Assembly (NCBI GenBank): GCA_964500985.1
Contig: CAZCRB010000002.1
Span: 36 to 64,035 of the forward strand
Length of the DNA: 64,000 bases
Direction of reading: 5' to 3'
Source of the DNA: an uncultured Eubacteriales bacterium
Lineage (GTDB): Bacteria > Actinomycetota > Coriobacteriia > Anaerosomatales > PHET01
In this document: positions 24,299 through 53,402 of the stretch, piece by piece
Position numbering within the stretch: the stretch's first letter is position 1
How the letters are laid out: every line of letters starts with the position of its first letter
Translations under genes and position numbers: made by a program
The notes under the pieces: generated by a model
Database searches by the model: none
The model's input: the letters and a program-made list of their open reading frames with translations, nothing else
Told to the model about the DNA's origin: nothing

Positions 24299-24307
24299 GA
24301 CACCCTC

Positions 24308-38260: not shown

Positions 38261-39685
38261 TTAGAGGATCACGAACGGCAGGAAGGCGTCCGGATAGCCC
38301 TTTTCCGTGCAAGCCATGCACGGGTGGCCACCGGCGACGCAGTTGCCGCCCTTGTTTCCGTTGGTTCCACCGACTCCGTAGTCGAGCGTGGAGTCGTTGC
38401 GCGGGTTCTGGCCGTTCCAGCCGTGAGGACCACAGAGAGTCATGGTCTGCGGGCCCTTGCAGCCGATGAGCTGCAGGCAGCCCGGCTCGCCCGGCTTGGT
38501 CGCGAACACGCCGTTGAGGGCGTCCTGGTAGCGCTTGCAGTACGGACCGTGCAGCGGCACACCGTAGACAGCCTTGAGGCGGCGCTGCTTGTCGACCGCG
38601 CTCGCGTTGATCGACACGTTCAGTCCGGCGCCATTGCGGTGCAGGATCTTGAGCGGGCCGTCAGCGCCGACTGCGGACTGGGTGAAGTCCACGAGCCACG
38701 CAACGACTGTCAGCACGAACCACCACGGGTTGGTCGGGCAACCGGGGACCGCGACGACCTTGTCGGCGGCAGCGATACCCGCCGCGCCGCACTTGGTCCG
38801 CAGGAACTCCTCGGTGCCAAGAGCACCGGTCTGGCCCTCGCCCAGGATCGGCGAGACACATGCCGGGTATCCACCGAAGCACGCACACTGGCCGATCGGG
38901 ATGATCGCGGCGCACTTGGGGTGGGTGGCGAGATCCTTGACGGTCTCGTCAAACGAATGCTCGGCGGTGCCGGCCTCGTTCATGCCGATGGAACACCACG
39001 CGGCGCCATCGTGCAGCGCGCCGTCGCCGGCGTTCCAGTAGCCGCCCTCGTCCTTGGGCTGAATCGAGCCCTCGACGACGAGAACGAACGGGGTGGAGGC
39101 GCCGGCCGTGTCCTTGCGGAGCTGGTCGAGCCACTGGTACGCGAGGTCGCCGCCCATACCCATGACCGTCTCATGATACTGAAGGTCGATGAAGTCGATG
39201 AGCACGTCGGCGATCGTCGCGACGAAAGCGCTGTTGCCGCCATTGGTGCCGGCAGACTCGAAGTTCACGCCGGTACCCGAAAGGGCACTCGCGGCGCTGG
39301 ACTCGAAGATGGTGCGGTGACCGTACGGGTGATCCGCACCGGTCTCCTTGGTGATGCCGAGAGCGGCCGCAGTGGCCGAGCCGGCTACGTTCCCGCCGTC
39401 GCCGTTGCCACCAACGGCGTAGTCGAGAGCCTTCAGCGTAGAGATGCTGGTGCCCTCGATAGCGGTGCCTCTGACGTCTTCGAAGAGACCCAGAAGCGAG
39501 GTCGAGCAGCCCGTGCACTCCGCGCCATGAACCCAAACCACCTTGGGCTTGTCGGTCCATGCGCCCGTCCATACGGAGCCGTGAGCAAATGCTTCGGCGA
39601 CCTTTGCGAGGTCGACTTGGCTCATGCCCATGGCCGCTGCCAGGGTGCCCAACCGGGTGACAAACTGTCGCCTGGTTATCGCCAT
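38261..39685 (-). CDS. [NiFe] hydrogenase small subunit with Tat signal
   Basis: ITRRQF twin-arginine motif; HGAECTGCS, GQCACFGG, PGCP, HGPYC, GCKGP and GHPCMAC motifs. Confidence 0.95.
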   Translation of the reverse strand: MAITRRQFVTRLGTLAAAMGMSQVDLAKVAEAFAHGSVWTGAWTDKPKVVWVHGAECTGCSTSLLGLFEDVRGTAIEGTSISTLKALDYAVGGNGDGGNVAGSATAAALGITKETGADHPYGHRTIFESSAASALSGTGVNFESAGTNGGNSAFVATIADVLIDFIDLQYHETVMGMGGDLAYQWLDQLRKDTAGASTPFVLVVEGSIQPKDEGGYWNAGDGALHDGAAWCSIGMNEAGTAEHSFDETVKDLATHPKCAAIIPIGQCACFGGYPACVSPILGEGQTGALGTEEFLRTKCGAAGIAAADKVVAVPGCPTNPWWFVLTVVAWLVDFTQSAVGADGPLKILHRNGAGLNVSINASAVDKQRRLKAVYGVPLHGPYCKRYQDALNGVFATKPGEPGCLQLIGCKGPQTMTLCGPHGWNGQNPRNDSTLDYGVGGTNGNKGGNCVAGGHPCMACTEKGYPDAFLPFVIL

Positions 39686-39944
39686 GCTGTCCCTAACCTC
39701 CTTCACACACTCTGAAGTGCTGGTTTTCCGTTGCCGAGTGGAGCGGATGAAGAAAGGCCACCTCCTTTACGCGAGCCCCATCTCGGGTTCGGTCGGAGGC
39801 GGCCTTGTCATCAGGACAGCGAAGACACCGAACGAGGGACACTGCGCCCCGTGTGGGGAATGGTGTCCTGGTCTCGTTCGAGGGCCCGATTGCCGGCTCC
39901 GACCCGTCGTACGTGATATTCGGTTTTTCAAGGCGTAACACCGT

Positions 39945-40041: not shown

Positions 40042-41559
40042 TCAGCTGGTCGGCGGCTGGTCACCGGCGCGATCCGCGTACTTCTTGGAGAGCGGTGTCC
40101 GCGCGATGAACTCCTCGCTGTCGACCACGGGTGCCTCAAGGACACGTGCGATACGACGCAGCTCGGCGTCCTCGGTGCAGAAGAGCTTCGCGCGCTGTGC
40201 GACCGCCATGATGCCCGCGTCTCGCCAACTCAGCTCATAGCGCTCCTGCAGTGCGCGTGCATCCGACTCGGAGAACTCGACGGGATTCAGCAGTTCGGCG
40301 AGCGAGATGCCGTCCTGGGCGAGGCCCTTGAGGTCCTCGTAGTCCTCCGTCATGACCTCCCAGCGCACGCGGCGGATGTCCATGCGCGCGATCTCGCCTG
40401 CGGCGAACAGCGCGTACACGAAGTCAGGCGTGGCGAAGTAGCGGCGGCGGCGCAGCAACAGCAGCAGCGGCAGGAGCAGCAGCGGCGAGAGGCACAGCAG
40501 CCACCCGGTCGGCGTTGTGGGCGTCGGAATCGGGTTGGCGGCCGCCGGCCAGCCCCACACCTGGATGCGCCCGTTGGCGGTGTCGGCGATGAATATGCGG
40601 CGGCGGGCGTCGACCGACGTGTCGTTGGGGTAGCTGAACTGCCCCTCCAGCACGCCATGCTCGCCGAAGGAGACGACCTTCTCGGCCTTGCGAGCGTCCC
40701 AGATGGTGCCGTCGTGGGCGAGCGTGTCGATGACCACCAGACGGCGCGGCTCTTCCTTCTTGAGCTTGGGCAGGAAGTCGAACCCGCGCGGGAGTCCCTG
40801 CGTGATGACCATCCGCTTGTACTCGCCCGCCCGGTCGAAGACCTGGATGCGGCGGTTGTTGGAATCGGCGACCCAGACCTCGTTACCGATGACCTTGATC
40901 GAGTTGGGGAACTGGAAGACCCCGGGGCCCTCCGACGCCTCGTTGACGAGGCCGGCGGTGCCCACGCTACGACGGAACGTGCCGTCGGGCGCGAAGATGA
41001 GCATGCGGTGGCCGTTGAGTATCTCGGTCACGTAGAGGGTGCCGTCGGGCGCAAAGTCCAAGGCGACGGGCGCCCACTGGAAGCCCTGCGTATCGAACTT
41101 GGGAAGCTGGTCGGCGGGCAGCTTGGGATCGAACTGCTTCTTGAACTTGCCGTCCTTCGAGAAGATGAACACGCCCTTCTTGCGGCGGTCCGTCACGTAG
41201 TAGTCCCCCGTCTTGGGGTGCTGCGCGACGTAGAGCGGGACGAGCAGATTGCCCTTGCCCCAAGTCGCGATGTGCGTGCCGCGAGGCGTGAACACCTCGA
41301 TGGCGCCCTTGCGCGAATCGGTCACGAGGACCTTGTTGTCGGCGGAGAGCACCCCGAGCGGCCTGACCAGCTGGCTCTGCCCGGCACCCGAGAAGGAGTA
41401 CAGGTACTGCGGGGCGGGCAGCAGCTCGGCTTGGTTGAAGTCGATCTGCACACCGATCGTCCGCGTGTTGCGGTAGTTGACGTACGCGGCGCCGATGAGC
41501 GCCAGCAAGACGATGAGCGCGACTATCGCGATGATCTGACGGATTCGCCTGCGAGACAT
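40042..41559 (-). CDS. NHL-repeat beta-propeller protein with two TM anchors and a PIN-like C-terminal tail (copy 1)
   Basis: NHL repeats (FQFPNSI..VADSNNRRIQVF; FSYPND..IADTANGRIQV); TM at both ends; tail RDAGIMAVA..CTEDAELRR. Confidence 0.85.
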   Translation of the reverse strand: MSRRRIRQIIAIVALIVLLALIGAAYVNYRNTRTIGVQIDFNQAELLPAPQYLYSFSGAGQSQLVRPLGVLSADNKVLVTDSRKGAIEVFTPRGTHIATWGKGNLLVPLYVAQHPKTGDYYVTDRRKKGVFIFSKDGKFKKQFDPKLPADQLPKFDTQGFQWAPVALDFAPDGTLYVTEILNGHRMLIFAPDGTFRRSVGTAGLVNEASEGPGVFQFPNSIKVIGNEVWVADSNNRRIQVFDRAGEYKRMVITQGLPRGFDFLPKLKKEEPRRLVVIDTLAHDGTIWDARKAEKVVSFGEHGVLEGQFSYPNDTSVDARRRIFIADTANGRIQVWGWPAAANPIPTPTTPTGWLLCLSPLLLLPLLLLLRRRRYFATPDFVYALFAAGEIARMDIRRVRWEVMTEDYEDLKGLAQDGISLAELLNPVEFSESDARALQERYELSWRDAGIMAVAQRAKLFCTEDAELRRIARVLEAPVVDSEEFIARTPLSKKYADRAGDQPPTS

Positions 41560-41601: not shown

Positions 41602-42636
41602 CTACTTGCCGAGTGACGCCTGGAGCTGCGCGATCTCTTTGTTGCTCGTGTCGAGCTTCGCGGCCTCGGTGAGGACCTGCTTCGCGCCCTTCTTGTCGCC
41701 CTTGGCGATGAGGATCTTGGCGTGAAGTATCGCAGCATCGACATCGCTCGGCTCGAGCGCGCGTGCGAGCAGGACCGCCTCGACCGCCTCGTCCAAGCGC
41801 TTGTCGGCGTAGGCGGCCTGGGCCTGCTTCAGCGCGTCTTCGCCGCTACCGAGCTTCTCGAGGGCCTTGCGCGGCAGGTCGGCCTCGGGGGCGAGGTCCG
41901 CGGCTTTGCGCAGGTGCACGGCCGAGTTGATCTTGTCGTTGCGCGCCAGGAGGATGATCCCGTAAAGGTAGTGGGCCTCAGCGTAGTTCGGATCGAAGGC
42001 GAGGGCGGCATCAAGCTGCTCGAGGGCGGCGTCATCGTCCTCGAGCCCGTGGAGGGACTGCGCGAGGAGGTAGTAGGTGTCGGACGCGTCCTTGCGGATG
42101 CGCAACGACGCCTTGAAGAAGCCGGCGGCATCCTCGTAGCGCTTGTCGTCGAGGGCGATCTCGCCCAGATGGAACAGCGCGGTCTCGCGGCGCTGGTTGA
42201 TGTTCTCCATCGTCTGGCCCTCGGTCAGCTCGACGACCTTGGTGAAGTAGCGCTCTGCGTTGGCGGTGTCCTTGGTCTCCATGGCGACGAGGCCGAGGTC
42301 GAGGTACGCGCCCGTGTGCTTGTTGTCTAGCTTGATGGCGGCCTTGAACTGCTCGGTGGCATCACGGTAGACGCCGGCCGAAGCGAGCGCCTCACCGTAG
42401 CGAACGCGGGCCGCCGCGCTGTTGGGGTTCTTCTTGACGAAGTTGCGGAGCTCGACCAGCGCGCGCTGGGCCGGGGTGGCCGTCGCCTCGACGCGAGTGC
42501 TCTGCCAGATGGTGTAGCCGAACAGCGCGGCAAGGCCGAGGACTCCGGCGACGAGCGCGATGATGACGTAGCGAAGAAGCGAATCGGTCCGGTCGGAACG
42601 GACGTCGGGCGTGGCGCCCGATGCGTGTTCTGTCAT
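41602..42636 (-). CDS. Membrane-anchored TPR protein (copy 1)
   Basis: N-terminal TM; multiple TPR repeats (ALAFDPNYAEAHYLYG). Confidence 0.88.
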   Translation of the reverse strand: MTEHASGATPDVRSDRTDSLLRYVIIALVAGVLGLAALFGYTIWQSTRVEATATPAQRALVELRNFVKKNPNSAAARVRYGEALASAGVYRDATEQFKAAIKLDNKHTGAYLDLGLVAMETKDTANAERYFTKVVELTEGQTMENINQRRETALFHLGEIALDDKRYEDAAGFFKASLRIRKDASDTYYLLAQSLHGLEDDDAALEQLDAALAFDPNYAEAHYLYGIILLARNDKINSAVHLRKAADLAPEADLPRKALEKLGSGEDALKQAQAAYADKRLDEAVEAVLLARALEPSDVDAAILHAKILIAKGDKKGAKQVLTEAAKLDTSNKEIAQLQASLGK

Positions 42637-42766: not shown

Positions 42767-43603
42767 CTAGGGAAGCTGCTTGACCACCTCGGTGATCGCG
42801 CTCTTGAGCGAGTCCGGCGAACCGCTCTTGACCGCCGCCATCTCCACGGCCACCATCACCGAGGCGTCCGTGAAGCCTACGACCGCGAAACGACGGCCAT
42901 CGGTACCGAAGTACACGTCGTGCCCGTTGACCTTGAAGGTCGCGGCGTCCTTGGGATAGCGCTGCTTGACCTGACTGGTCAGCGCCTTCTGCGCATCCGC
43001 GCCGGTCCGGAACTGCTCCGCCGAGATCACGAGCTGGACGACATCGGCGTTGCCGGCCGGCAGGTACTGACGCGTGACGGACAAGGCATCGTTGGCTGCC
43101 TTTCGCGCGGTGTAGCCCGTGATCGCATCGGGAACCCACGCCGCCAACGCACCATTGGGCGTGACCCCCGGATCCGGCGTGGACGTGGGATTCTTGGTCC
43201 CACCCGAGCCCGACGACCCCTTGTCGGATGTCGGCGACTTGCCGGCGTTGATCGCGTCGAGCTGGGATGCGGCGCTCTTGAAGCCGGCGTCCCCGGCGAC
43301 AACCGCGGCGAGCTTCTCTTTGGCGGTGGTCAGATCGCCCGCCGCGAGCGCGCTCTGTGCCTGTGCATAGAGGGCCTCGAGCTTGCGATGCTTGTCGCAC
43401 ACGATCGTCTTCTCCTTGACGCGGTACTTGGCCGCGTCCTTCGAAGGTACCTCGATGGTGCGCACGCTGTCGGAGACCTCGTGCCCGTAGGTGCACATGA
43501 CGCGCTCGCCGGTCTGAACCTCGACTTTGCGCTGACACCCGGCGAGCGAACCCGCGCTCAGCGCGAGAACGAGTGCGAGCACCGCGAGCAGTGGTCTTCT
43601 CAT
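42767..43603 (-). CDS. Lipoprotein, paralog of 29280..30074
   Basis: Lipobox LAGC after ATG 43603 (ATGA overlap with the upstream gene); C-terminal YFGTDGRRFAVVGF. Confidence 0.8.
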   Translation of the reverse strand: MRRPLLAVLALVLALSAGSLAGCQRKVEVQTGERVMCTYGHEVSDSVRTIEVPSKDAAKYRVKEKTIVCDKHRKLEALYAQAQSALAAGDLTTAKEKLAAVVAGDAGFKSAASQLDAINAGKSPTSDKGSSGSGGTKNPTSTPDPGVTPNGALAAWVPDAITGYTARKAANDALSVTRQYLPAGNADVVQLVISAEQFRTGADAQKALTSQVKQRYPKDAATFKVNGHDVYFGTDGRRFAVVGFTDASVMVAVEMAAVKSGSPDSLKSAITEVVKQLP

Positions 43604-45045
43604 CCCTGGTCCTTCCGCGGCCCGCGCGCGAGCAGCGCGAGCGCAATCGAGAACACCGCGGCGGCCGCACCGACCACGCACGACACGAGTGCGACGGGCG
43701 CGGCCACGGGTTCGAGAACAAGAGCAGCATACTCCGTGCCGTAAGCCTGCTGAACCTCGGCCGGCACAAACGAACTCCACGTCTGAAGCGTGACGGCAGT
43801 GAGCATCGGGTACGCGGCAGCGCACGCCAACGACGCGATTCCCGCCGAGACGACCGCGCCGGTCGAGCGCTCAGGCAGCGCGAGGGCAGCGGTCAGCGCA
43901 AGCGCGCACGCTGCGAAGACCAGCCATCCGCCCGCCGACGCGTACCCCGGCTGCAGCCACGTTCCGCTGAAGAACGCCTCGCCGGTCCCCCGCCCCTCGG
44001 CTGTGGCGCGGATCGCCGGCAGGAACAGGGCCACAGACGAGCCGACGAAGGCCACGGACGCGATGGCGATGGCGATGGCTGCAAGGTTGCGTCGGCCACG
44101 GCCGATCTTGTCGACTGACCGGGATGGCGCCTGCGCGAACCAGACCGCCGCCGCGGAGGCGAGCACCGCCGCAGCTCCGGACAACGCGCCGGCCCACGAA
44201 ACGGGATCGGGACCGAAAGACGCCGTCGCCTTCTCCAGCAGGGTCAGCGCGCTGACCGCGACCGGAGCGACGAGCAGGGCCGTTGAGGCGCGCGCTACAC
44301 CCTGCGCGCCGACGGACCGGACCCACCCCATGGCGAACACCGCGACCGCCAACCCCAGCGCGATGAGTCCTGGCCAGGCGCGCTCAAGGGACGTGGACTG
44401 CCCTGCGACCGCAGGGAGCGCCCAGAGCAGTGCCGGAACCGCCGCGCCGATGACCGCCAGAGCGACGGTGCGACGTGCGCCGATTCTGAGCGCCACCACC
44501 CGCAGAGAGATCGACGCGACCGCAAACGCCGCACCCGCGGCGAGCATGACCAGCTCGGGCACTGGGAACTTGATGAAGGGCGAGAACGAACTCGGGCGCT
44601 CCCAATTGGCGAGCAGCGCCGCTGAGCCCGCCAGTGCGCCGACGGCACCCGCAATCCCCGAGAGTGCCGTGCGAGGCTTGTGGGCGAAGAACGCCAGCGC
44701 CACGCACAGAGCGCCCCACGCCACCGTGGTGAAGAACAGGACCTCGGAGCCGGACGGCGCATCGCTGGACCGCTGGGCAAGGGCGATGAGGGGGGCGGCC
44801 CAGAACGCGGTGGCGCCCGCCACTACGGCGAGGACGAGCTCGGAACGGCTTTGCGCCCAGAGCGACCGCATCGGCACGAGGCCCTCAGCGATCAGGACCA
44901 CGACCAGAGCCACTCCCAGAGACGCCCCCAGTATCAGGGCGTCCGGAAGACCTTCCATGAGGACCGTCGTGATGACGAATGTCGCCGCCGCCCCGACGAG
45001 GGACGAAGCGATTGCCAGAAGGTGTTTGGGGGCGAATCGGGCCAC
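43600..45045 (-). CDS. Polytopic membrane protein, EamA/DMT-like with C-terminal extension
   Basis: About 13-14 hydrophobic segments; GVARASTALLVAPV DMT-like motif. Confidence 0.65.
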   Translation of the reverse strand: MARFAPKHLLAIASSLVGAAATFVITTVLMEGLPDALILGASLGVALVVVLIAEGLVPMRSLWAQSRSELVLAVVAGATAFWAAPLIALAQRSSDAPSGSEVLFFTTVAWGALCVALAFFAHKPRTALSGIAGAVGALAGSAALLANWERPSSFSPFIKFPVPELVMLAAGAAFAVASISLRVVALRIGARRTVALAVIGAAVPALLWALPAVAGQSTSLERAWPGLIALGLAVAVFAMGWVRSVGAQGVARASTALLVAPVAVSALTLLEKATASFGPDPVSWAGALSGAAAVLASAAAVWFAQAPSRSVDKIGRGRRNLAAIAIAIASVAFVGSSVALFLPAIRATAEGRGTGEAFFSGTWLQPGYASAGGWLVFAACALALTAALALPERSTGAVVSAGIASLACAAAYPMLTAVTLQTWSSFVPAEVQQAYGTEYAALVLEPVAAPVALVSCVVGAAAAVFSIALALLARGPRKDQG

Positions 45046-45141: not shown

Positions 45142-46446
45142 CTACTTGTTGTGGCAGGACTCGCACACGCCCCGGTTGTCCAGGCGCAACAGCGCGCTGG
45201 GGCTGGCCGGGAACTGGTTGCGGGCGACGCCGTCAGTGTCGACGACGAGGGTGCCCGTGGCCGCGTAGCCCGTCATCGCTGCCGCAGTACCGTGGGCACG
45301 GTGGCAGGTCAGGCACTCGATCCAGTCACTGTCCGTCTTGGCGGGTGCGCCGACGGTCGAGGACTCGTTGAGCGAGTTGGCAAGCGGGATCGGCAGCGCA
45401 CCGATCACCATGGACGACTTGTCAGGACCGTTGTAGGTGCTGAGCTCGACGTTCATGGGGTGGCGGTGGCGCAGACGGTAGTTGCCGCCGTCGCCAGCGT
45501 CGTACATGGTCGCGGAGGCCGCGTACGTAGTGCCATCGGAGCGCGTGATCACGCGAACCGGCTGCAGGTACGTGCTGTGGCACCCGGTGCACCAACCGCT
45601 CATGCCCTTGGTCGGGTCCTCGACGAGGTTGCCTGCGGCAGCCTGCTTCATGTCGTAGCCCTTGGCGTAGCGCGGCGTGGTGTAGTCAGGCTGGTAGCTC
45701 GGGTAGGCCGTGTGCAGGCGGAAGCCGCCGGCGGGCCAGCCGCGCTCAGTCGACGAGACGAAGCCGTCGGGATCCGGGTTCACCGAGCTGTTGGTGTTGT
45801 CGTAACCACCCACGCGGTTGCCGTTGACCATCGACTTCAGGATGCGGTAGTTGGCGCTGCCGTGCGGGTCGTGGCAGGTCGCACAGTCCATCTTGACTGC
45901 GGTCGACTCACCCTTGTCGCGCGGCTTGCCGTTGGTCGGATCGGTACCAGGCGAACCATCAGTGGTCGCGTCGGTGGCCGACTTGCCGTAGTAGCCACCG
46001 CCGTACGCACCCCACGACGCACCCTGGTACATGTGCACCGAGGAGACCGGCACGGTGACCGTGGCCCCGAGCGAGGTGTCGTACTTCTGCATGGTGCTGA
46101 AACCGCCGCCGTTGAGGACACCGTTCTGGACACCGTAGAGCGTGCCCTCGTAGATGCCGTTCTCGACGTTGGTGTCGGCGCCCTGCGCGCTGCCGTCGTG
46201 GCAGGCGTAGCAGAACTGGTACATCTCGGTCGCGGTGCTCACGAGCAGTGCGCTGTGGTCGTTCGCGCCAGCGTCCTGCCACGTGATCGAGCTGACGGAG
46301 GTGTGCGCCCGGTGACAACCGGCACATGCGTCGGTATCGGCCACGTAGTTGCCGTGGATCGCGAAGTTGGCGTTCGCGGCGACAGGGACCATGAGCGCCA
46401 CGAGGGCGGCCAGGGCGAATGCGAGTGCGAATCTCTTGGTAGTCAT
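45142..46446 (-). CDS. Secreted OmcS-like hexaheme cytochrome c (formate dehydrogenase module)
   Basis: Signal peptide; 6 CxxCH in 434 aa; HGN..CAGCHRAH, CHDPHG..YRIL, MSGWCTGCH, RHP, CLTCHRAH; C-terminal CESCHNK. Confidence 0.82.
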   Translation of the reverse strand: MTTKRFALAFALAALVALMVPVAANANFAIHGNYVADTDACAGCHRAHTSVSSITWQDAGANDHSALLVSTATEMYQFCYACHDGSAQGADTNVENGIYEGTLYGVQNGVLNGGGFSTMQKYDTSLGATVTVPVSSVHMYQGASWGAYGGGYYGKSATDATTDGSPGTDPTNGKPRDKGESTAVKMDCATCHDPHGSANYRILKSMVNGNRVGGYDNTNSSVNPDPDGFVSSTERGWPAGGFRLHTAYPSYQPDYTTPRYAKGYDMKQAAAGNLVEDPTKGMSGWCTGCHSTYLQPVRVITRSDGTTYAASATMYDAGDGGNYRLRHRHPMNVELSTYNGPDKSSMVIGALPIPLANSLNESSTVGAPAKTDSDWIECLTCHRAHGTAAAMTGYAATGTLVVDTDGVARNQFPASPSALLRLDNRGVCESCHNK

Positions 46447-46449: not shown

Positions 46450-47388
46450 CTACACCTCCCCACCGGTCAGCGCTTCGGACTCGTTCTTGGTCCGGCGGGC
46501 GGAAAGCGCCGCAAGACCGCCGACGACGAGCGTCGGCAGGAGAAGCTTAGCACCAGTGCCCGACAGCATGCTCGACGCCATCGGAGCGACGTGATCCTCG
46601 ATGAACGGATCAGCCTTGGGCGGCGCGAGCAGGAAGTTCTTGCTCGCCCAGAACATCGAACCGCTACCGATCCAGTTCTTGGTGCCGGCGGCGGGACCCG
46701 AGGTGAGGGTGTAGCCGTTGGCCGGATCCTCGAGGTACTTGATGATGTTGTCGCGGGCGTCCCACTTCATCGCCTTGGCCGGGCAGCTCGACACGCACGC
46801 CGGCTCATGAGCGAGCTCGGGCACGATCGGCACCGGCAGCGCGCCGGTGCTCAGAGTGATGCTGCTGACCCAGTTGCCCGAGGCGTCCTTCACGGCACGC
46901 GTGGGCAGGGCGGTCGCGGGATCGACCACGCCATCGGCGCCGGCGCGACCGTTGCACAGGGTGCACTTGTTCATCTTGACGTCGGTGGTGTCCTCGTAAG
47001 CGACGCCGACCTTGGGATAGCCGCCGCGCTGACAGCCGAACTCACACGGCTTGGGACCCGGGCCCACTTTGCAGACGTTGGGCTTGCACAGCGCCTTGTC
47101 GACGCTGACCGCACCGGTTGCCTCTTTCTTCATGGCACCGAGCGGGCAGGCCTTGACGCAGGGCGGGTCGTAACAGTGCCAGCAGGTGTAGCGCATGAAC
47201 GCGCCCATATCCGAACGCTTGAGGCTCTTGATCGCCAGCCGCTGACGCGGGTTGACGACGGAGCGCTGCGGGATCACCTGGGCGATGTTGTCGGGGTTCT
47301 TGAGACCCCACTCGCGCTTACAGGCGATGACACAGCCGTTGCAGCGCATGCACTTATCGACATCCTGGAATACTGCCATCACAGTCAT
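46450..47388 (-). CDS. fdhB: Formate dehydrogenase iron-sulfur (beta) subunit with C-terminal TM
   Basis: CMRCNGCVIAC, CWHCYDPPCVKACP and KCTLC..PACVSSCP motifs; C-terminal hydrophobic helix as in FdnH. Confidence 0.85.
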   Translation of the reverse strand: MTVMAVFQDVDKCMRCNGCVIACKREWGLKNPDNIAQVIPQRSVVNPRQRLAIKSLKRSDMGAFMRYTCWHCYDPPCVKACPLGAMKKEATGAVSVDKALCKPNVCKVGPGPKPCEFGCQRGGYPKVGVAYEDTTDVKMNKCTLCNGRAGADGVVDPATALPTRAVKDASGNWVSSITLSTGALPVPIVPELAHEPACVSSCPAKAMKWDARDNIIKYLEDPANGYTLTSGPAAGTKNWIGSGSMFWASKNFLLAPPKADPFIEDHVAPMASSMLSGTGAKLLLPTLVVGGLAALSARRTKNESEALTGGEV

Positions 47389-47401: not shown

Positions 47402-50400
47402 CTACATCTTCTCGAGTCGGCAGAGACAGGCCTTGAACTCAGGGATCGTCGTGTTCGCGTCCATCGCGTCGATGGTCAGGTCGTTCGCCCGCGAACCGGT
47501 CGACAGACCCTGCTCGCCCCAGTGCCACGGAATTGCCACGACACCCTGGGCCACACGCTGGTTGGACTGGATTCCCACGCCGACACGGGCGACGAAGCCC
47601 TTGCCGTAGTTGTCGAGCGCGTTGACGACGCCCTGGGCGTTGGTGTTGCCGTCGGTGCGGGCGGTGACGACCTTGACGTAGTCGCCATCCGCGATGCCGA
47701 GCAGGCGTGCGTCGACGTTGTTGAGCTCGATCCACGGCTCCGGCTCGGCCTCGACGTTCCACCAGTTGTTACGGGTGATGGGGCCGCCCTGGAAGTGCTC
47801 GACGCACCGGATGGTGGTCAGCACCAGCGGGTACTTGCTCGGCTTACCGATGGTCGTGCCGTCGTAGATCAGGTTCAGAGGACCGGCAGCCTGGATAGCG
47901 GTGCTATCGGCGCTGTTGTAGCCCCAGACCAGATCGCCGAGGTCATCGGCGCGCGGAGTCTCGTACGGCTCGGTGTGCGCCGGGAAGCGACCGGGCTCGA
48001 CGTGGATCGCCGGAGCGGTCCCGTTTGCGAGATACGGCTTGTCGGCGAGCACGTGCGAAGTCGGCGCAAGGATCGTGCGGTACCAACGCGAGTAGTTGTA
48101 GATCGTCGTGCCGGTGGGAGCCCACGCGCTCTGGCCCTTCGGGGAGAAGAGGCGCACGCACGAGTCCGGACCCATGAAGAAGTCCGACTGGTCACCGACG
48201 ACTTCGGCGTTGTTGTACAGCACGCGGCGGTTGACGAGCCACGAGTAGCCCCACTTGTGGGAAGCGAGGGTGCCGTACGGATCCTGGCGGTCACGGCTCT
48301 TGGAGCGGTTCGAGACTTCCCAGGTGCTGTAGGCGCCGTAGAGGCGACCCATGCCCTTGGCGGTGTCGTAGCCCTCCGTGTAGATCCAGATCGTACCGCC
48401 GGCAGAGACGCTGCTCGTGTACTCGCGGAACACCATCTCAGCGACGAACTCGGAGCCCTGGACCTTGGTTGAGGTCGCGGGGTTGAGCGCGGCGTAGGTG
48501 GTGCCGGCGCCGGTCCACGCACCAGGCGTGGCGTAGTCGATCGTCAGGCCGGTCGTGTCGCTGCCTGCCGCGGTGAACGCAACCGCGCCACCGGGAGTCC
48601 AACCGTACGGCGTGCCGTAGAGGTTGGCGTAGGCGGCCTTGGAAGCCCAGCCCTGGACGGACTCGATGTGAGCGAAGCAGTCAGCGTCGTTGAGCGCCTT
48701 GGCGAACCGGAGCAAGAGCTCGTTGTCGTCCTTGCTGTTGCCCTTGGGGTCAACGGCCTTGTAGCGCCACTGCAGGGTACGACCGGAGTTCGTGGCCGCG
48801 CCCGCCTTCTCGACGTGGGCCGCCGACGGGATCAGGTACGTGACACCCGTGCACTTGCGGGACACCGCAGCGGTCTCGTTCATGAACATGTCGACGCAGA
48901 CGAGCGTGTCGAGGTTGTAGAGCCCCTCGCGGACCTTCGCCTGGTTCGGCTCGGTGACGGCGGGGTTCTGTCCCCACACGACGAGCGACTGGATGCGGGT
49001 CGCGTCGGTGTGCGTCATGTACCTGAACATCTTGATGTGGTTGAAGCCGTTGCCCTTGGGCCACAACGAGTACGCCTTGTCCACGATGGCGCGCCGTGCG
49101 GCGAGCGTGGTGGCGCTGGTCGCAGCGGAGTATCCGCCGAACCACTTGAGCGTCATGTTGTAGAACCCGCGCTGTTGCAGCTGCATGGCGCCCGTGTTGT
49201 AGGCGTCGTCGTAGCTGTTGTCCATCTTGGAACGCACGGTGCCGCTGAAGTCAGTGGTCCCGGTGGTTCCGGACAGAGGCAGGCCCCACAGCCCGTCCAT
49301 GTACTTGCCGAACGCCTTGTTGGTGTCCGTACCGTCCACGGCCGTGACCTGGGTGCCCGGGTTGCCCGAGTAGCCGGGGATGTTGCCGTAGAGCAGGCCC
49401 ATGTCCGTCGAACCCTGGACATTGTGGATGCCGCGCAGCGCGTTGATGCCGCCGCCGGCGCGTCCCGTGTTGCCCATCATCGACTGCAGGTTGGCCATTG
49501 CCTTGACGTTCTGCGCACCGTAGGTGTGCTGCGTCAGACCCATGGCGTACAGGATCGTCGTGGCGCGGTAGCCGGCCTGCGGTGCCTGGTCGGTATCGAC
49601 CGTGTAGGTGACGAGAACCTTGTCGCCTGCGTTGATGCCGCCCGCGACGGCGACGCGCTTGAGCGTGCCGAGCGAACGCGAGTTGGTACCGGCGACCACG
49701 GTGTAATGCGTACCGGCCGTGTAGGTGGTCAGACCATCAAGGCTCTTGACCGAGGCAACGGACAGGTTCCAGCCCCACATCGGCACCGCGTCAGGAACGC
49801 CGGCGGTGTCGGTCAGGCGCACCACGCGGTCGGTGAACGTGACGTTCGACGACACGGAGGAGCAGCGGCTGTTCTGGATGATCGCGTCACCGACGAGCGC
49901 GATGTCGGCGACCGTGCAGCCGCAGATGTCGGCAACGACGGTGTCACTGTAGGCGGCAAGGTGCTGCTTCATGCGCGAGAACACCGTGCCGGCGGCGTCA
50001 CACGCGGCGGCCTTCTTGGGGAAGTTCGAGATCAGCAGGTTGTTGGTCTCGGTGCCCAAGGGGGTTCCGCCGGTGGTGGTGACGGTACCGCGATCGTAGT
50101 CCGTGCCGTTGAGCATGAACCGCGCGTCGGTGTACTTGGAGCTGCCCGCCACGGTGGCGACCTGCGTGCTCGCGTGCGTTGCGTCGCCGTCCGTGAAGAA
50201 CGTGCCGTTGCCGCTCTGGTTCAGGTACGCCCAGTACTCGGTCTTCGTGGCGGCGGGGATCTCGGTGCCGTCAGCGAAGTACGTCGTCTGGTCGGTCCGC
50301 ATCTTCTCGATGATGTAGGCCATCACGCCGTTGGCCAACGCGATGTCGGTTCCGGGACGGATGCGGACGTAGTCATCGGCCTGCAGCGCGGTGCGCGTCT

Positions 50401-51283
50401 TGCGGGGGTCGATGACGATGAAGCGCGCAGGCTTCTTGTTGGCACGGTCACCCGAGAAGTACTGCTTGGGGAAGCGTGCGCGGTTGACGTGCGCCATGCA
50501 CGCCGGGTGGTTCTCAGTGGGGTTGGCACCCCACGCGATAACGAGCGAAGCATTGGCGATGTCCGCCCAATGGTTCGTCATCGCGCCTCGTCCGAATGCG
50601 GCGGCCAGACCGGCCACCGTGGACGAGTGTCATATACGGGCCTGATGCTCGACGTTGCTGGTACCGAAGTTCGCGATGATCTTGCGGTACAGGTAGTTCG
50701 ACTCGTTGTTCATGTGCGAACTACCGAGGAACGCAACGGTCTTGCTGTTGTACTTCATCGAGCCCGGCACCCAGTTGGTGGCGTCGGCGTCACGCGCCGT
50801 CTTGAGGCGAGTGGCGATATCGGCCAGCGCGGTGTCGATCGGCACGGCGGACCAAGGGCCATCGCCGGTGCGCTTGTACGCGATCGGGTTGCTGGTGCCG
50901 TCGGCCGCGAACACGTTGTCGACCGGGTGCGTGCCCGTGAACGCGCCGATACGGCGCGGGTTGTTCACGAGCTGGAGCGCCCCTGCGCCCTTGGCACACA
51001 GGCCGCCCGAGTTCATGGGCGACTCGAAGTCACCGTAGACGTCTACAACGACCGTCGGGTCGGATTTCTTGACGACGACGCGCTGCCCGCAGCTTGCGGA
51101 GCAGTACGGGCACGTCGTCGTGGTGATCTGGTAGTCAGCTGAGTTCTCGTACGCGGACGCCTTTTCAGGATCGTACGCGAACTCGAGGCCGCAACCGACC
51201 ACCGCGGTGGCAGCTGCGGCGGTTTTGATGAAGTCACGCCTGGTGACCCCACCAACCGGCTGCCCGGTGTCCCTAGTTGCCAT
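47402..51283 (-). CDS. fdhA: Selenocysteine-containing Mo/W formate dehydrogenase alpha subunit (Tat-exported, 1293 aa, Sec218)
   Basis: ORFs 50630..51283 and 47402..50617 are in frame across TGA 50632-50630 in EHQARI-U-HSSTVAGLAAAFGRGAMTNHW. Tat motif TRRDF; CPYC..C..LCAKG; ALRGIHNVQG; EFKACLCRLEK. Confidence 0.95.
50587..50627 (-). other. SECIS element of fdhA
   Basis: CTCGTCC-A-CGGTGGCC-GGTCT-GGCCGCCG-CATTC-GGACGAG directly after the UGA; GGUCU loop as in the fdhF-type SECIS. Confidence 0.88.
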
Positions 51284-51842: not shown

Positions 51843-53402
51843 TTACGAGGGGGACGGCTTGGCCCCTTTACCGCTGCCGAGGTACATCGACTTGAACTCC
51901 TCGACGTCGACCACGCGCACGTCGGCGAGCACGCCGATCCTGCGCAGGTCGCGGTCCTCGGTGCCGAGTGCGCGTGCGCGCTGGGCCATGGAGACCACGA
52001 TAGCCTCACGCTGGGCCACATCGAGACGATCGACGAGCGCACGGGCGTCGGACTCGGAGTACTGCTCGAACTCTATGAGCTCGGTCAGCGTGACACCGTC
52101 GACCACCTTGCCCTCGTAGGCCGCGAGGTCCTCTTCCGGTGCCACCAGGCGCAGTCTGCGGCGATCAGCGACCGCGCGGATCTCGCCGGCTGCGGCGAGT
52201 GAGTCGACGAAGTCGGGCGTCACGACGATGCGGACACGGCGGCGCAGGAGCAGCAGCGGGAGGAGGAGCAACGGCGACAGGCACAGCAGCCAGCCGAGCG
52301 GCGTGGTGGGGGCGGCGACCGCAGGCGGCTGCGCGACCGGCCAGCCCCAGACCTGGACCTGGTTGTTGTCGCGGTCGGTCACGTAGATGCGCGCCCCGCT
52401 CACGGCGACGTCGTTGGGATAGTTGAACTGCCCGGGGCCGAAGCCCTGGCTGCCGAACTGCGTGAGCCGCTTGCCGTCGAGGTCGTAGACGTCGACGGTG
52501 TGCGCGACGGCATCGACCGCGTAGAGACGCTGCTTGGCATCGATGGCGATACCGCGCGGTATGCCCGAGGTGTCGACGAAGCGCTTGAACTCGCCCTTCT
52601 CGTCGAACACCTGGACCCGGCGGTTGTCACCGTCGGAGACGAAGATCTCCCCGCGTCGCGAGACGGCCAGGCCGTTGGGGAAGTAGAAGCCGCCGGGAGA
52701 CTCCTCGGCAGACTTGACCTGTACGGTCTTGCCGACGGTCGCCGTGCGGCTGCCGTCTTCACTGAAGATCATCAGCTGGTGCTTGCTGGTGTTGTCCACG
52801 TCGGTGACGCGCAGCGCGCCGGCGCTGTCGAACGTGAGTGCGAGCGGCGTCCAGTCGAGCGTCTCGTTCTTGGGCTCGAACATCTTCTTGAACGCGCCCT
52901 GCGTGCTGAAGATGACGATGTTGCGAAGTCTGCGGTCGGTGACCCACACCTCGTCGCCCTTGACGGCGAGATGCACGGGGCTCTGCAGGTTGCCGTCGGC
53001 CGTCTTGGCGAACGAGCGCACGTAGCGGCCGTTACGGGTGAACGCGCTGATGCGGTTGTGGCCGAAGTCCGCGACGAACACGGTCTGCCCGTCGGTGGAC
53101 ACGCCCACCCCGATCGGGCGATCGAGCGCGCTTGCTCCCTGCCCGGTGATCGAGAAGAGGTACTGCGGCGGGTCGATCATCGCCTCAGGTGCGGCTATGT
53201 CGACGCTGGGCAGTCTGCGGTTCTGGATGAAGTAGTAGGTGGAGTACGCGAGCAACGCCAGGAGCACGACGAGCAGCGACAGCAGCAGGATGCGCTTGCG
53301 CACCTCACGCTTGGTCAACTTCGGCCTCCCCTGTGTGCGGGGAGCCTCCGGCTGCGGCGGAACCTGTGGTGCGTTCGTGGCGGACATCTCGTCAGGAGCC
53401 AT
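51843..53402 (-). CDS. NHL-repeat beta-propeller protein with two TM anchors and a PIN-like tail (copy 2)
   Basis: Same architecture as 40042..41559, including GWLLCLSPLLLLPLLLL and SESDARAL..TEDRDLRR. Confidence 0.85.
   Translation of the reverse strand: MAPDEMSATNAPQVPPQPEAPRTQGRPKLTKREVRKRILLLSLLVVLLALLAYSTYYFIQNRRLPSVDIAAPEAMIDPPQYLFSITGQGASALDRPIGVGVSTDGQTVFVADFGHNRISAFTRNGRYVRSFAKTADGNLQSPVHLAVKGDEVWVTDRRLRNIVIFSTQGAFKKMFEPKNETLDWTPLALTFDSAGALRVTDVDNTSKHQLMIFSEDGSRTATVGKTVQVKSAEESPGGFYFPNGLAVSRRGEIFVSDGDNRRVQVFDEKGEFKRFVDTSGIPRGIAIDAKQRLYAVDAVAHTVDVYDLDGKRLTQFGSQGFGPGQFNYPNDVAVSGARIYVTDRDNNQVQVWGWPVAQPPAVAAPTTPLGWLLCLSPLLLLPLLLLRRRVRIVVTPDFVDSLAAAGEIRAVADRRRLRLVAPEEDLAAYEGKVVDGVTLTELIEFEQYSESDARALVDRLDVAQREAIVVSMAQRARALGTEDRDLRRIGVLADVRVVDVEEFKSMYLGSGKGAKPSPS

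What the first reader, a model, noticed from the sequence alone, without database searches (positions are those of the whole stretch)
45142..46446. OmcS-like hexaheme 2: a diverged paralog dedicated to the FDH operon
It has the same six-heme scaffold as 34770..36062 (DTDACAGCHRAHTS, HSALLVS, RHRHP, CLTCHRAHGT, LLRxDNRGVCExCHNK), but the inter-motif loops differ strongly. This suggests an old duplication with loops specialised for different partner enzymes, similar to the omcS/omcT paralog pair.
Basis: partly seen in the sequence, partly recalled or inferred. Interest (0 to 1): 0.75.

Follow-up and report, generated by a model that had tools for sequence, protein, structure and literature searches.

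The report
OmcS-family hexahaem cytochrome wired to formate dehydrogenase
This gene encodes a six-haem cytochrome related to the Geobacter "nanowire" protein OmcS, and in uncultured Gram-positive Actinobacteria one copy sits in the formate dehydrogenase operon and a sister copy in a hydrogenase operon, probably as each enzyme's electron outlet.

Summary
ORF 45142..46446 (-) encodes a 434-aa secreted protein with six CxxCH motifs. It is 37% identical (E 4e-77) to the paralog at 34770..36062.

The OmcS likeness is real homology. A family profile hits OmcS (6EF8) over its full length at E 1e-11, with all six haem motifs colinear and the His16, His147 and His335 equivalents conserved. A reciprocal OmcS-family profile hits all 77 family members, well above controls shuffled with the motifs kept.

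The gene starts 3 nt after fdhB of a TAT-exported, selenocysteine formate dehydrogenase.

Across 78 related loci, 42 of 42 FDH-linked copies and 19 of 21 hydrogenase-linked copies fall into separate clades. The hydrogenase clade has bootstrap 82 and the FDH clade 60. Individual MAGs carry both paralogs.

Three deeper-branching loci show one hexahaem next to both enzymes or ahead of fdhAB. Thermoleophilia and Chloroflexi have TPR-NHL-hexahaem with no enzyme.

Most likely it is the c-type electron-transfer partner ("gamma subunit") of FDH. It would link FdhB to a conserved multihaem/cytochrome b network.

Filament formation is untested. The structure model was too poor to use. I rate it a new variant of a known kind, of moderate to high interest.

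The parts
45142..46446 (-). HEX2: 434-aa OmcS-family hexahaem cytochrome c (the finding)
   Evidence: Intact ORF with six CxxCH motifs. The family profile hits OmcS 6EF8 at E 1.1e-11 over the full length. A reciprocal OmcS profile gives 38.6 bits, E 6.8e-9.
46369..46446 (-). Signal peptide (residues 1-26, predicted cleavage A24-N25-A26|N27)
   Evidence: Hydrophobic N-terminus. A24 and N27 are invariant and A26 is nearly invariant in 37 homologs. The mature N-terminus NF..HG resembles the mature OmcS start.
46312..46326 (-). Haem motif 1, CAGCH(41-45), followed by H48 (CHRAH), the equivalent of OmcS His16
   Evidence: hmmalign to OmcS C9/C12/H13/H16. Invariant in the family.
46198..46212 (-). 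Haem motif 2, CYACH(79-83)
   Evidence: Aligned to OmcS C47/C50/H51.
45871..45885 (-). Haem motif 3, CATCH(188-192), followed by DPH195
   Evidence: Aligned to OmcS C140/C143/H144/H147. Pfam Paired_CXXCH_1 at 2.2e-16.
45577..45591 (-). Haem motif 4, CTGCH(286-290)
   Evidence: Aligned to OmcS C239/C242/H243.
45301..45315 (-). Haem motif 5, CLTCH(378-382), followed by RAH385
   Evidence: Aligned to OmcS C328/C331/H332/H335.
45151..45165 (-). Haem motif 6, CESCH(428-432), two residues from the C-terminus
   Evidence: Aligned to OmcS C400/C403/H404.
46450..47388 (-). FdhB: 4x[4Fe-4S]-type ferredoxin subunit with a hydrophobic C-terminal tail. It ends 3 nt before the HEX2 start.
   Evidence: Pfam Fer4_11. 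NCBIfam best partial hits are HybA, HmcB, DmsB and FDH3 beta. Tail LLLPTLVVGGLAALSARRTK.
47402..51283 (-). FdhA: TAT-exported molybdopterin formate dehydrogenase catalytic subunit, read through an in-frame TGA
   Evidence: TAT signal, Fe4S4 domain, Molybdopterin and Molydop_binding domains; TIGR01553 at 2.5e-101.
50630..50632 (-). In-frame TGA, predicted selenocysteine codon of FdhA
   Evidence: Translation ...VEHQARI*HSSTVAGLAAAFGRGAMTNHW. This matches the conserved Sec/Cys active-site context of FDH-N type enzymes (established knowledge).
43600..45045 (-). MEM481: polytopic membrane protein downstream of HEX2. DMT/EamA-like fold with an extra C-terminal domain. Not a redox protein.
   Evidence: AF2 pLDDT 92. 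Foldseek hits YddG 5i20 (TMt 0.75) and LicB 7paf. No conserved His or Cys. Conserved after HEX2 in most FDH loci.
42767..43603 (-). Predicted lipoprotein (UNK352; likely start MRRPLLAV...LAGC), conserved after MEM481
   Evidence: Lipobox in the sequence. Synteny. No Pfam family.
51843..53402 (-). NHL_b: membrane-anchored NHL beta-propeller protein upstream of fdhA
   Evidence: Pfam NHL at 4.6e-24. Two TM segments. Conserved position in loci.
53392..54405 (-). TPR_b: N-terminally anchored TPR protein, first gene of the module
   Evidence: Pfam TPR families, with a weak CcmH/CycH TPR hit. A promoter-like site lies at 54467..54495.
54551..59345 (-). Upstream conserved electron-transfer block: cytochrome b (58491..59345), 6-haem MHC357, 11-haem MHC455 and 20-haem MHC538
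   Evidence: Pfam Ni_hydr_CYTB, Cytochrome_C7 and others. Haem counts. Conserved upstream of TPR-NHL in most loci.
34770..36062 (-). HEX1: paralogous hexahaem cytochrome, 17 nt after the [NiFe]-hydrogenase large subunit
   Evidence: Member of the hydrogenase-linked clade.
36080..39706 (-). HydS (TAT signal, no C-terminal TM helix) and HydL, a [NiFe]-hydrogenase. The paralogous TPR_a (41602..42636) and NHL_a (40042..41559) lie upstream.

Best explanation
HEX2 is a secreted, all-bis-His hexahaem cytochrome c of the OmcS family. It serves as the dedicated c-type electron-transfer partner, in effect the gamma subunit, of an extracytoplasmic selenocysteine formate dehydrogenase in a monoderm actinobacterium (Coriobacteriia/Anaerosomatales-like).

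Proposed path: formate is oxidised by FdhA outside the membrane. Electrons run through the FdhB iron-sulfur chain into the six-haem chain of HEX2. From there they pass to the conserved neighbouring multihaem cytochromes (MHC538, MHC455, MHC357) and the FdnI/HyaC-family cytochrome b. The final destination is extracellular Fe(III) or an electrode, or the membrane. The chain can plausibly run in reverse, from a cathode towards CO2 reduction.

The paralog HEX1 does the same for the TAT-exported [NiFe]-hydrogenase. The whole TPR-NHL-(enzyme)-hexahaem module was duplicated and each copy became fixed to one enzyme.

Shown here: the sequence features, the OmcS homology, the synteny, the separation of clades by partner enzyme, and co-expression in a relative. 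Inferred: the location outside the membrane, direct FdhB-to-HEX2 electron transfer, the downstream acceptors, and the direction of flow.
For: Homology to OmcS:
- The family profile hits 6EF8 at E 1.1e-11 over the full length.
- All six haem motifs are colinear, and the His16, His147 and His335 equivalents are conserved.
- Pairwise tblastn gives 22-27% identity over 400-480 aa to OmcS relatives in 38 of 78 loci.
- A reciprocal OmcS profile hits 77 of 77 family members (median 38 bits). Motif-preserving shuffles reach at most 22.9 bits, and the best other window multihaem cytochrome scores 10.6 bits.

Non-catalytic wire: six canonical CxxCH motifs plus six invariant extra His (H31, H48, H138, H195, H329, H385) point to bis-His ligation with no open coordination site.

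Enzyme partnership:
- There is a 3-nt gap to fdhB.
- FdhB lies immediately upstream in all 42 FDH-clade copies that are linked to an enzyme. HydL lies upstream of 19 hydrogenase-clade copies.
- The operon has no cytochrome b or NrfD-type subunit. The downstream membrane protein has a DMT transporter fold and no conserved His or Cys.
- HydS has a TAT signal and no membrane anchor, as in soluble periplasmic hydrogenases that reduce c-type cytochromes.

Expression: in Coriobacteriaceae sp. EMTCatB1 (locus L021), the adjacent genes 1c0408 (FDH large subunit), 1c0407 (hybA-like) and 1c0406 (multihaem cytochrome) are among the top 10% of transcripts on a working biocathode. For 1c0406 the first three values in the supplementary table are 2716, 901 and 437, which I read as the closed-circuit, open-circuit and BrES means (PMC7943316).

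Physiology: cultured Anaerosomatales grow on H2 or formate with Fe(III) or sulfur compounds, carry about 17 multihaem cytochromes, and have no detectable quinones (PMC9686372).
Against: No biochemical evidence exists for this protein or any family member.

The AF2 model of HEX2 was poor (mean pLDDT 64, haem regions below 50), and Foldseek found nothing. Fold-level support is therefore missing.

Synteny does not prove a physical complex.

Four Thermoleophilia copies nested in the FDH clade have no adjacent enzyme. L042 and L059 have one hexahaem between hydL and fdhA. 'Dedicated' therefore holds for the Coriobacteriia lineage, not the whole family.

Bootstrap support for the FDH clade is only 60, and the tree is neighbour-joining.

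That 1c0406 is the HEX2 ortholog is inferred from gene order only.

How energy would be conserved if electrons leave directly to extracellular acceptors is not explained.
Confidence: 0.7

Rival explanations
1. HEX2 polymerises like OmcS into an extracellular or cell-wall-spanning cytochrome filament. FDH and hydrogenase dock onto their own filament type, so the enzymes are plugged directly into nanowires. TPR and NHL would be the monoderm assembly or anchoring factors.
For: The family is homologous to OmcS over its full length. It keeps the equivalent of His16, which in OmcS ligates haem 5 of the neighbouring subunit, and His332 of haem 5. The only other PDB sequences the family touches are OmcE nanowire subunits: 7tfs at E 0.05 and 9yuq at E 0.004. 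HEX has no membrane anchor after signal cleavage and HydS has no anchor, so something must retain them at a monoderm surface. TPR-NHL-HEX is the invariant core, even where no enzyme is present. P. hydrogeniphila forms thin appendages only when grown on ferrihydrite (PMC9686372).
Against: CxxCHxxH is a common intramolecular ligand arrangement, so conservation of H48 does not show inter-subunit ligation. Of the four OmcS-family paralogs in G. sulfurreducens, only OmcS itself is known to form a wire (PMC12977616). No homologs of the window's companion genes lie next to OmcS relatives. No oligomer model could be made here.
Confidence: 0.2
2. HEX2 is a generic, freely exchanging periplasm-like electron carrier, comparable to the Desulfovibrio type I cytochrome c3 pool, and is not specific to FDH. 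The operon position would reflect co-regulation only.
For: L042 and L059 have a single hexahaem between the two enzyme gene sets. Only one shared column is conserved with a different residue in the two clades. Geobacter periplasmic cytochromes show little specificity (title of ref 10).
Against: Both paralogs are retained side by side in the same genomes. Each keeps its own enzyme neighbour across about 60 loci and forms its own clade. Clade-specific indels cover 48 and 24 columns. The TPR and NHL companions were duplicated along with them. A freely diffusing carrier is hard to retain outside a monoderm membrane.
Confidence: 0.08
3. HEX2 is itself a catalytic multihaem reductase, for example for nitrite, sulfite, tetrathionate or metals. 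FDH would feed it as a self-contained formate:X oxidoreductase.
For: Multihaem enzymes such as NrfA and octahaem reductases exist, and OcwA of Thermincola resembles them (my own knowledge). The FDH-cytochrome pairing would suit a formate-dependent reductase.
Against: All six motifs are canonical CxxCH, with no CxxCK. Six invariant distal His are available for six haems. There is no significant match to any NrfA, HAO or Otr family in Pfam, NCBIfam or PDB. The same scaffold serves a hydrogenase and, in other loci, a giant surface cytochrome.
Confidence: 0.02

Closest known systems
OmcS (GSU2504) of Geobacter sulfurreducens, PDB 6EF8/6NEF, the hexahaem nanowire cytochrome
   Same: Similar size (407 aa mature vs about 408 aa). 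Six CxxCH motifs in the same order and similar spacing, with the last motif at the extreme C-terminus. The CHxxH (His16), DPH (His147) and RAH (His335) ligand motifs are conserved. Statistically significant full-length profile similarity in both directions.
   Different: Only about 22-27% identity. The host is a monoderm actinobacterium. The gene is embedded in a dehydrogenase operon rather than the omcS-omcT-osc cluster. Its companions are TPR, NHL, a DMT-like protein and a lipoprotein, none of which were found next to OmcS relatives. Filament formation is unknown.
OmcT, OscC (GSU2501) and OmcJ, the OmcS paralogs in Geobacter
   Same: They are paralogous hexahaems of one family arising by repeated duplication, and their functions other than wire formation are still open (PMC12977616).
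   Different: The Geobacter paralogs are tandem or scattered and have no known enzyme partner. Here each paralog has a fixed enzyme neighbour and its own clade.
Dedicated cytochrome c3 subunits of periplasmic dehydrogenases in Desulfovibrio (FdhABC3, and HynAB with type I c3). This comparison rests on my own knowledge.
   Same: A TAT-exported FDH or hydrogenase lacks a cytochrome b subunit and hands electrons to a c-type multihaem cytochrome encoded next to it or dedicated to it. The hydrogenase small subunit has no membrane anchor.
   Different: Those partners are about 13-kDa tetrahaem class III cytochromes. HEX2 is a 45-kDa hexahaem of the OmcS family and gives no Cytochrom_CIII match. The host has no outer membrane to enclose a periplasm.
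FdnGHI / HyaABC type enzymes with a cytochrome b gamma subunit (Pfam PF01292)
   Same: FdhA (Sec, TAT) and FdhB with a C-terminal hydrophobic tail resemble FdnG and FdnH. A PF01292 cytochrome b is encoded at the head of the same conserved gene block.
   Different: The cytochrome b gene lies about 12 kb upstream of HEX2, ahead of three multihaem cytochrome genes. It is not the third gene of the FDH operon, where a c-type hexahaem sits instead.
OmcE-type tetrahaem nanowire cytochromes (7TFS; 9YUQ from Desulfuromonas soudanensis)
   Same: They are the only other PDB sequences that show any similarity: E 0.05 over haems 2-3 and E 0.004 over haems 4-5.
   Different: The similarity is marginal and local. 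They have four haems in about 220 aa. I do not claim membership.

Membership tests
OmcS family (hexahaem cytochrome, 6EF8) | Six CxxCH haem-binding motifs in a secreted protein of about 400 aa | tested here: met
   Six motifs, 434-aa precursor, signal peptide. All but a few of the 78 relatives also have six.
OmcS family (hexahaem cytochrome, 6EF8) | Significant full-length, colinear sequence similarity to OmcS | tested here: met
   Profile against PDB: E 1.1e-11, query 39-411 vs chain 8-406. Reciprocal OmcS profile: 38.6 bits for HEX2, against at most 22.9 bits for 385 motif-preserving shuffles. tblastn finds 400-480-aa alignments.
OmcS family (hexahaem cytochrome, 6EF8) | Bis-histidine ligation of all six haems | tested here: inconclusive
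   Six invariant non-motif His are present in 37 homologs. Three of them align with OmcS His16, His147 and His335. The other three lie in loops that the alignment does not place reliably. Actual ligation is not observable from sequence.
OmcS family (hexahaem cytochrome, 6EF8) | Inter-subunit ligation (His16 of one subunit to haem 5/His332 of the next) and polymerisation into a filament | not testable with these tools
   The residues are conserved (H48 and H382). No multimer or haem-aware modelling was available.
OmcS family (hexahaem cytochrome, 6EF8) | OmcS fold | tested here: inconclusive
   AF2 model has mean pLDDT 64 and pTM 0.66, with the haem regions below 50. Foldseek against PDB gives no hit with E <= 0.001.
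OmcS family (hexahaem cytochrome, 6EF8) | Genomic association with the osc (OmcS companion) assembly and secretion genes | tested here: not met
   tblastn with the window's TPR, NHL, MEM481 and lipoprotein sequences against 78 loci around OmcS relatives gave only sporadic repeat hits. The osc proteins themselves could not be retrieved, because Shen et al. 2025 is not held.
Class III cytochrome c3 partner of periplasmic FDH/hydrogenase | Gene adjacent to and co-oriented with the dehydrogenase subunit genes | tested here: met
   3-nt and 17-nt gaps. Conserved in 42 and 19 loci respectively.
Class III cytochrome c3 partner of periplasmic FDH/hydrogenase | Tetrahaem c3 fold and family | tested here: not met
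   No PF02085 hit. PF14537 scores only 27.6 bits, with no stretch passing on its own.
NapC/NrfH/CymA quinol dehydrogenases | N-terminal membrane anchor plus a tetrahaem domain matching the family model | tested here: not met
   TIGR03153 scores 17.4 bits against a cutoff of 134, for HEX1 only. The N-terminus has an AxA cleavage site.
MtrC/OmcA/MtrF decahaem surface cytochromes | Full match to the domain II/IV pentahaem domain | tested here: not met
   PF22113 scores 32.9 bits over 66 residues only, positions 75-142 of 176. The DmsE decahaem model scores 34 bits against a cutoff of 192.

The most novel reading that the evidence does not exclude
The two hexahaems polymerise into OmcS-type nanowires in a Gram-positive cell envelope. 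The formate dehydrogenase and the [NiFe]-hydrogenase would each be physically mounted on its own filament type. This would make natural enzyme-terminated nanowires that let cells oxidise H2 or formate against distant Fe(III) minerals, or make H2 or formate from a cathode or a syntrophic partner, without quinones. TPR and NHL would be a previously unrecognised monoderm nanowire assembly system.
Probability: 0.18. Interest if true: 0.9.

Novelty: new variant of a known kind. Interest (0 to 1): 0.62.

Why it matters
OmcS is the reference cytochrome nanowire, yet how electrons enter such wires is debated. Its relatives outside Gram-negative metal reducers are barely characterised.

Here an OmcS-family protein is placed by gene order directly behind the two classic primary dehydrogenases of anaerobic lithotrophy. 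The lineage (OPB41/Anaerosomatales and relatives) is widespread in the deep subsurface. Its members grow on H2 or formate with Fe(III), and one dominates a methane-producing biocathode.

If the partnership is real, it gives a concrete and testable electron path for H2- or formate-driven iron reduction and for cathodic H2 or formate production in monoderm bacteria.

It also offers a natural experiment on partner specificity: the same scaffold, two enzymes, and an apparently undivided state in a deeper branch. And it provides a natural design for wiring hydrogenases and CO2-reducing formate dehydrogenases to electrodes.

The open-access papers I could search describe the FDH-cytochrome cluster (PMC7943316) and the cytochrome inventory (PMC9686372). 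Neither recognises the OmcS homology or the paralog-per-enzyme pattern.

Tried and rejected

2. Single-sequence phmmer against PDB missed OmcS and gave only OmcE at E 0.05. The profile was needed.

3. I asked whether the downstream membrane protein MEM481 is the quinone-reactive or haem b anchor of the FDH. I rejected this. It has no conserved His or Cys. It has a DMT/EamA transporter fold. It has no Pfam or PDB sequence hit.

4. I looked for shared companion genes between this cluster and loci around OmcS relatives, and found none.

5. I tried to read Shen et al. 2025 (the osc machinery), but it is not held. Only second-hand descriptions were available.

6. I considered NrfH/NapC, MtrC/DmsE and class III c3 membership. 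All scores are far below the family cutoffs.

7. I considered a catalytic multihaem enzyme and rejected it on ligand counting.

8. Literature searches pairing OmcS with Coriobacteriia found no paper, and those pairing it with OPB41, Anaerosomatales, Actinomycetota or Geothermincolia found none that makes the connection.

9. UNK461 (downstream of HEX1) and the predicted lipoprotein have no recognisable family.
Full report
**1. The observation**

The minus-strand ORF 45142..46446 is intact: 434 aa, ATG start, GC3 0.88 in a window of 67% GC.
- It starts with a Sec-type signal peptide with an A-x-A site (…VAANA|NFAIHG).
- It carries exactly six CxxCH motifs, at residues 41, 79, 188, 286, 378 and 428. 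The last one is two residues from the C-terminus.
- The ORF at 34770..36062 (430 aa) has the same six motifs. It is 37% identical (E 4e-77), with 84 gap positions in 472 alignment columns.

One detail is wrong: the His of HSALLVS is not conserved among homologs.

**2. Is it OmcS-like?**

Pfam and NCBIfam give only generic multihaem signatures: Paired_CXXCH_1, plus weak partial MtrC, c7 and DmsE matches far below the family cutoffs. A single-sequence search of PDB sequences missed OmcS and gave only OmcE (7TFS) at E 0.05.

A profile built from 37 homologs of both paralogs (A1) changes the picture.
- Its best PDB hit by eight orders of magnitude is OmcS (6EF8/6NEF), at E 1.1e-11. The match covers profile positions 39-411 and OmcS residues 8-406.
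- Aligned to that profile, all six haem motifs of OmcS are colinear with those of HEX2 and HEX1: C9/C12/H13, C47/C50/H51, C140/C143/H144, C239/C242/H243, C328/C331/H332 and C400/C403/H404.
- Three extra histidines coincide. H48 matches OmcS His16, H195 matches His147, and H385 matches His335. From established knowledge of the 6EF8 structure, His16 is the residue that ligates haem 5 (His332) of the neighbouring subunit in the filament.

I tested the reverse direction with controls.
- A profile built from 117 OmcS relatives, taken from loci L079-L156, hits all 77 members of the actinobacterial family. The median is 38 bits. HEX2 scores 38.6 bits (E 6.8e-9 at PDB-size Z) and HEX1 scores 37.4 bits.
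- 385 shuffles that keep every CxxCH motif in place but permute the segments between them reach at most 22.9 bits.
- The best of the other multihaem cytochromes in the window scores 10.6 bits.
- Pairwise tblastn finds 22-27% identity over 400-480 residues in 38 of 78 OmcS-relative loci.

The resemblance is therefore homology and not motif coincidence. One homolog, P0205, already carries the name 'c-type cytochrome OmcS' from its source.

The family has six invariant non-motif histidines: H31, H48, H138, H195, H329 and H385. That is enough for six bis-His haems, which argues for a wire and against a catalytic haem.

The structural route failed. The AF2 model had mean pLDDT 64, with the haem regions below 50, and Foldseek found nothing.

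**3. Genomic anatomy**

HEX2 starts 3 nt after a 312-aa four-cluster ferredoxin subunit, FdhB. FdhB has a hydrophobic C-terminal tail, …LLLPTLVVGGLAALSARRTK. Before it lies a TAT-signal molybdopterin formate dehydrogenase, FdhA. The reading frame of FdhA continues through a TGA at 50630..50632 inside HQARI-U-HSSTVAGL…FGRGAMTNHW, the classic selenocysteine site.

Downstream of HEX2 come two genes.
- A 481-aa polytopic membrane protein. It gave a confident AF2 model (pLDDT 92). Its first ~300 residues have the DMT/EamA transporter fold (YddG 5I20 at TMt 0.75; LicB). It has no conserved His or Cys. It is therefore not a quinone or haem subunit.
- A predicted lipoprotein.

Upstream of fdhA lie, in order of increasing distance:
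- a membrane-anchored NHL propeller protein and a membrane-anchored TPR protein;
- a 20-haem, an 11-haem and a 6-haem cytochrome;
- a PF01292 cytochrome b, the family of FdnI and HyaC.

The paralog HEX1 sits 17 nt after the large subunit of a [NiFe]-hydrogenase. The small subunit of that enzyme has a TAT signal but no C-terminal membrane helix. The module is again preceded by its own TPR and NHL genes. It is followed by an unknown 461-aa protein and a 1,007-aa, 13-haem FG-GAP cytochrome. The N-terminal 220 residues of that cytochrome are themselves homologous to the hexahaem N-terminus (E 6e-12).

**4.

Size and distribution of the family:
- More than 1,500 proteins at 90% clustering.
- 237, 840 and 1,556 representatives at 50% clustering, at E thresholds 1e-30, 1e-10 and 1e-3 respectively.
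- At least 410 hits in species-representative genomes.
- Almost all come from uncultured Coriobacteriia/Anaerosomatales. Some are from Thermoleophilia, Geothermincolia-like Actinomycetota and one Chloroflexi MAG.

In 78 loci with 10-kb flanks the gene order is strikingly conserved:
- [cyt b][MHC357][MHC455][MHC538][TPR][NHL][FdhA][FdhB][HEX][DMT-like][lipoprotein]
- [TPR][NHL][HydS][HydL][HEX][UNK461][MHC1007]

I extracted 77 hexahaems and labelled each by the gene immediately upstream. I then built a neighbour-joining tree on 347 columns, with 100 bootstraps and OmcS as outgroup.
- All 19 hydrogenase-linked Coriobacteriia copies fall in one clade of 25 sequences with bootstrap 82. That clade has no FDH-linked member.
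- All 42 FDH-linked copies fall in another clade of 46 sequences with bootstrap 60. That clade has no hydrogenase-linked member.
- The same MAGs contribute to both clades. Examples are C14-13 (L025 and L045), Kmv32 (L015 and L048) and La2_metabat2.009 (L073 and L060).
- Identity on shared columns is 57-58% within clades and 46% between them. There are 48 hydrogenase-clade-only and 24 FDH-clade-only columns.

**5. Exceptions that inform the history**

- Three deeper-branching loci (L042, L059, L066) are sister to the FDH clade with weak support. In L042 and L059 a single hexahaem lies between the two enzymes: …TPR-NHL-hydS-hydL-HEX-fdhA-fdhB. In L066 the hexahaem sits at the contig edge directly ahead of fdhA-fdhB.
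- Thermoleophilia (L023, L030, L061) have cyt b-MHCs-TPR-NHL-HEX(-HEX) with no enzyme. One Chloroflexi locus (L077) and L075 also lack an enzyme next to the hexahaem; NHL lies directly upstream of the first of three tandem copies in L077, and about 1 kb upstream in L075.
- A sub-clade inside the hydrogenase clade (L064, L071, L074) follows a ~1,900-aa protein that combines a BNR/Ycf48-like propeller, FN3 domains and multihaem domains.

The simplest reading has three steps. TPR-NHL-hexahaem is an old cytochrome module. Dehydrogenase genes were then inserted next to the hexahaem. In Coriobacteriia the whole module was duplicated, and each copy became fixed to one enzyme.

**6. Mechanism**

The FDH operon has no cytochrome b or NrfD-type subunit. 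The hydrogenase small subunit has no anchor. The hexahaem gene is translationally coupled to the last enzyme subunit gene. The best-supported role is therefore that of the c-type 'gamma subunit', the immediate redox partner of FdhAB (HEX2) and of HydSL (HEX1).

This works like the cytochrome c3 partners of periplasmic FDH and hydrogenase in Desulfovibrio (my own knowledge), but it uses an OmcS-family scaffold. From the hexahaem, electrons would reach the conserved neighbouring multihaem cytochromes and the cytochrome b. They would then go outward to Fe(III) or an electrode, or into the membrane.

Two papers give physiological context.
- In Coriobacteriaceae sp. EMTCatB1 (my locus L021), the adjacent genes 1c0408, 1c0407 and 1c0406 are annotated as FDH large subunit, hybA-like and multihaem cytochrome. 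They are among the most abundant transcripts on a methane-producing biocathode. For 1c0406 the first three table values are 2716, 901 and 437, which I read as the closed-circuit, open-circuit and BrES means (PMC7943316). The authors proposed cathode to cytochromes to hydrogenase/FDH, which is the reverse direction.
- Cultured Anaerosomatales grow on H2 or formate with Fe(III) or sulfur compounds, encode 17-18 multihaem cytochromes, and have no detectable quinones (PMC9686372).

Neither paper recognises the OmcS homology. My searches found no open paper linking OmcS to these lineages.

**7. What remains open**

Whether the hexahaems polymerise is unknown.
- In favour: conservation of the His16 equivalent, the lack of any anchor, the constant TPR/NHL companions, and the fact that the only other PDB sequences the family touches are OmcE nanowire subunits (7TFS; 9YUQ, a D. 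soudanensis OmcE homolog).
- Against: CxxCHxxH is a common intramolecular ligand arrangement. [quoted passage not shown] None of this cluster's companion genes occur next to OmcS relatives.

Energy conservation is also unexplained if electrons go straight from an outside-facing dehydrogenase to an outside acceptor.

**8. Verdict**

I classify it as a new variant of a known kind: OmcS-family cytochromes recruited as enzyme-specific partners of formate dehydrogenase and hydrogenase in monoderm Actinobacteria. Interest is moderate to high, because it ties a nanowire-family protein directly to primary dehydrogenases and is readily testable in a cultured relative.

Noticed in passing
window 43600..45045 (-): A conserved 481-aa membrane protein follows HEX2. 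It has no Pfam family. Its confident AF2 model shows a DMT/EamA transporter fold plus an extra C-terminal part with several TM helices and beta hairpins. Invariant motifs include LANWERPSSFSPF and WIPAEVQQxYGTEYA, and there are no conserved His or Cys. Its role in an FDH-cytochrome operon is unexplained.
   Followed up: partly
L042 6835..14370; L059 4..7852; L066 164..7754: In deeper-branching Actinomycetota MAGs a single hexahaem gene lies between hydSL and fdhAB (L042, L059) or directly ahead of fdhAB (L066). This may be the undivided ancestral state before the duplication seen in the window.
   Followed up: partly
L023, L030, L061 (Thermoleophilia); L077 (Chloroflexi); L075: These loci have a hexahaem, sometimes 2-3 tandem copies, with NHL (and in most a TPR gene) upstream and no dehydrogenase next to it. 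This suggests TPR-NHL-hexahaem is the conserved core and the enzymes are later insertions or losses.
   Followed up: partly
L064 4152..9959; L071 4769..10603; L074 4230..9968: A third sub-clade of the hexahaem is preceded by a ~1,900-aa protein that combines BNR/Ycf48-like propellers, FN3 domains and a C-terminal multihaem region. This looks like a giant surface cytochrome partner.
   Followed up: partly
window 40042..41559 and 51843..53402 (-); 41602..42636 and 53392..54405 (-): There are two paralogous pairs of NHL propeller proteins and N-terminally anchored TPR proteins, one pair ahead of each enzyme-hexahaem module. Each NHL protein has an N-terminal TM helix, the propeller, a second TM helix and a cytoplasmic tail of about 130 aa. 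The TPR proteins show a weak CcmH/CycH-type TPR resemblance. They may be assembly or anchoring factors.
   Followed up: partly
window 30130..33153 (-): A 1,007-aa cytochrome with 13 CxxCH motifs and FG-GAP repeats. Its first ~220 residues are homologous to the N-terminal half (haems 1-3) of the hexahaem (E 6e-12). The OmcS-like module therefore also occurs fused into a larger protein.
   Followed up: partly
PDB matches of the family: Apart from OmcS, the only PDB sequences with any similarity are OmcE-type nanowire subunits: 7TFS at E 0.05 over haems 2-3, and 9YUQ at E 0.004 over haems 4-5. The literature says OmcS and OmcE share little sequence similarity. This family might bridge them, but the signal is weak.
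   Followed up: no
window 36080..38236 (-): The [NiFe]-hydrogenase large subunit is long (718 aa, with insertions). It ends exactly at ...DPCIACAVH, without the usual C-terminal extension that a maturation protease removes. Its best NCBIfam matches are NiFeSe-type models, well below cutoff.
   Followed up: no
window 33150..34535 (-): A 461-aa acidic protein with no signal peptide follows HEX1 in most hydrogenase-linked loci. It has no recognisable family, only a faint AAA_16 hint at E 0.21.
   Followed up: no
window 54551..59345 (-): A conserved block comprises a PF01292 cytochrome b (284 aa) and 6-, 11- and 20-haem cytochromes, at the head of the FDH module. It is a candidate membrane entry or exit point for the whole system. 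The start of the 6-haem ORF overlaps the cytochrome b ORF, so its true start is uncertain.
   Followed up: partly
window 19228..26566 (-), 14093..15196 (-), 4275..6446 (-): A complete chemotaxis operon (CheA, CheB, CheR, CheC, CheD and MCPs), a GGDEF-GAF protein, a PilT/T2SSE-type ATPase and a further 723-aa multihaem cytochrome lie next to the cytochrome island.
   Followed up: no
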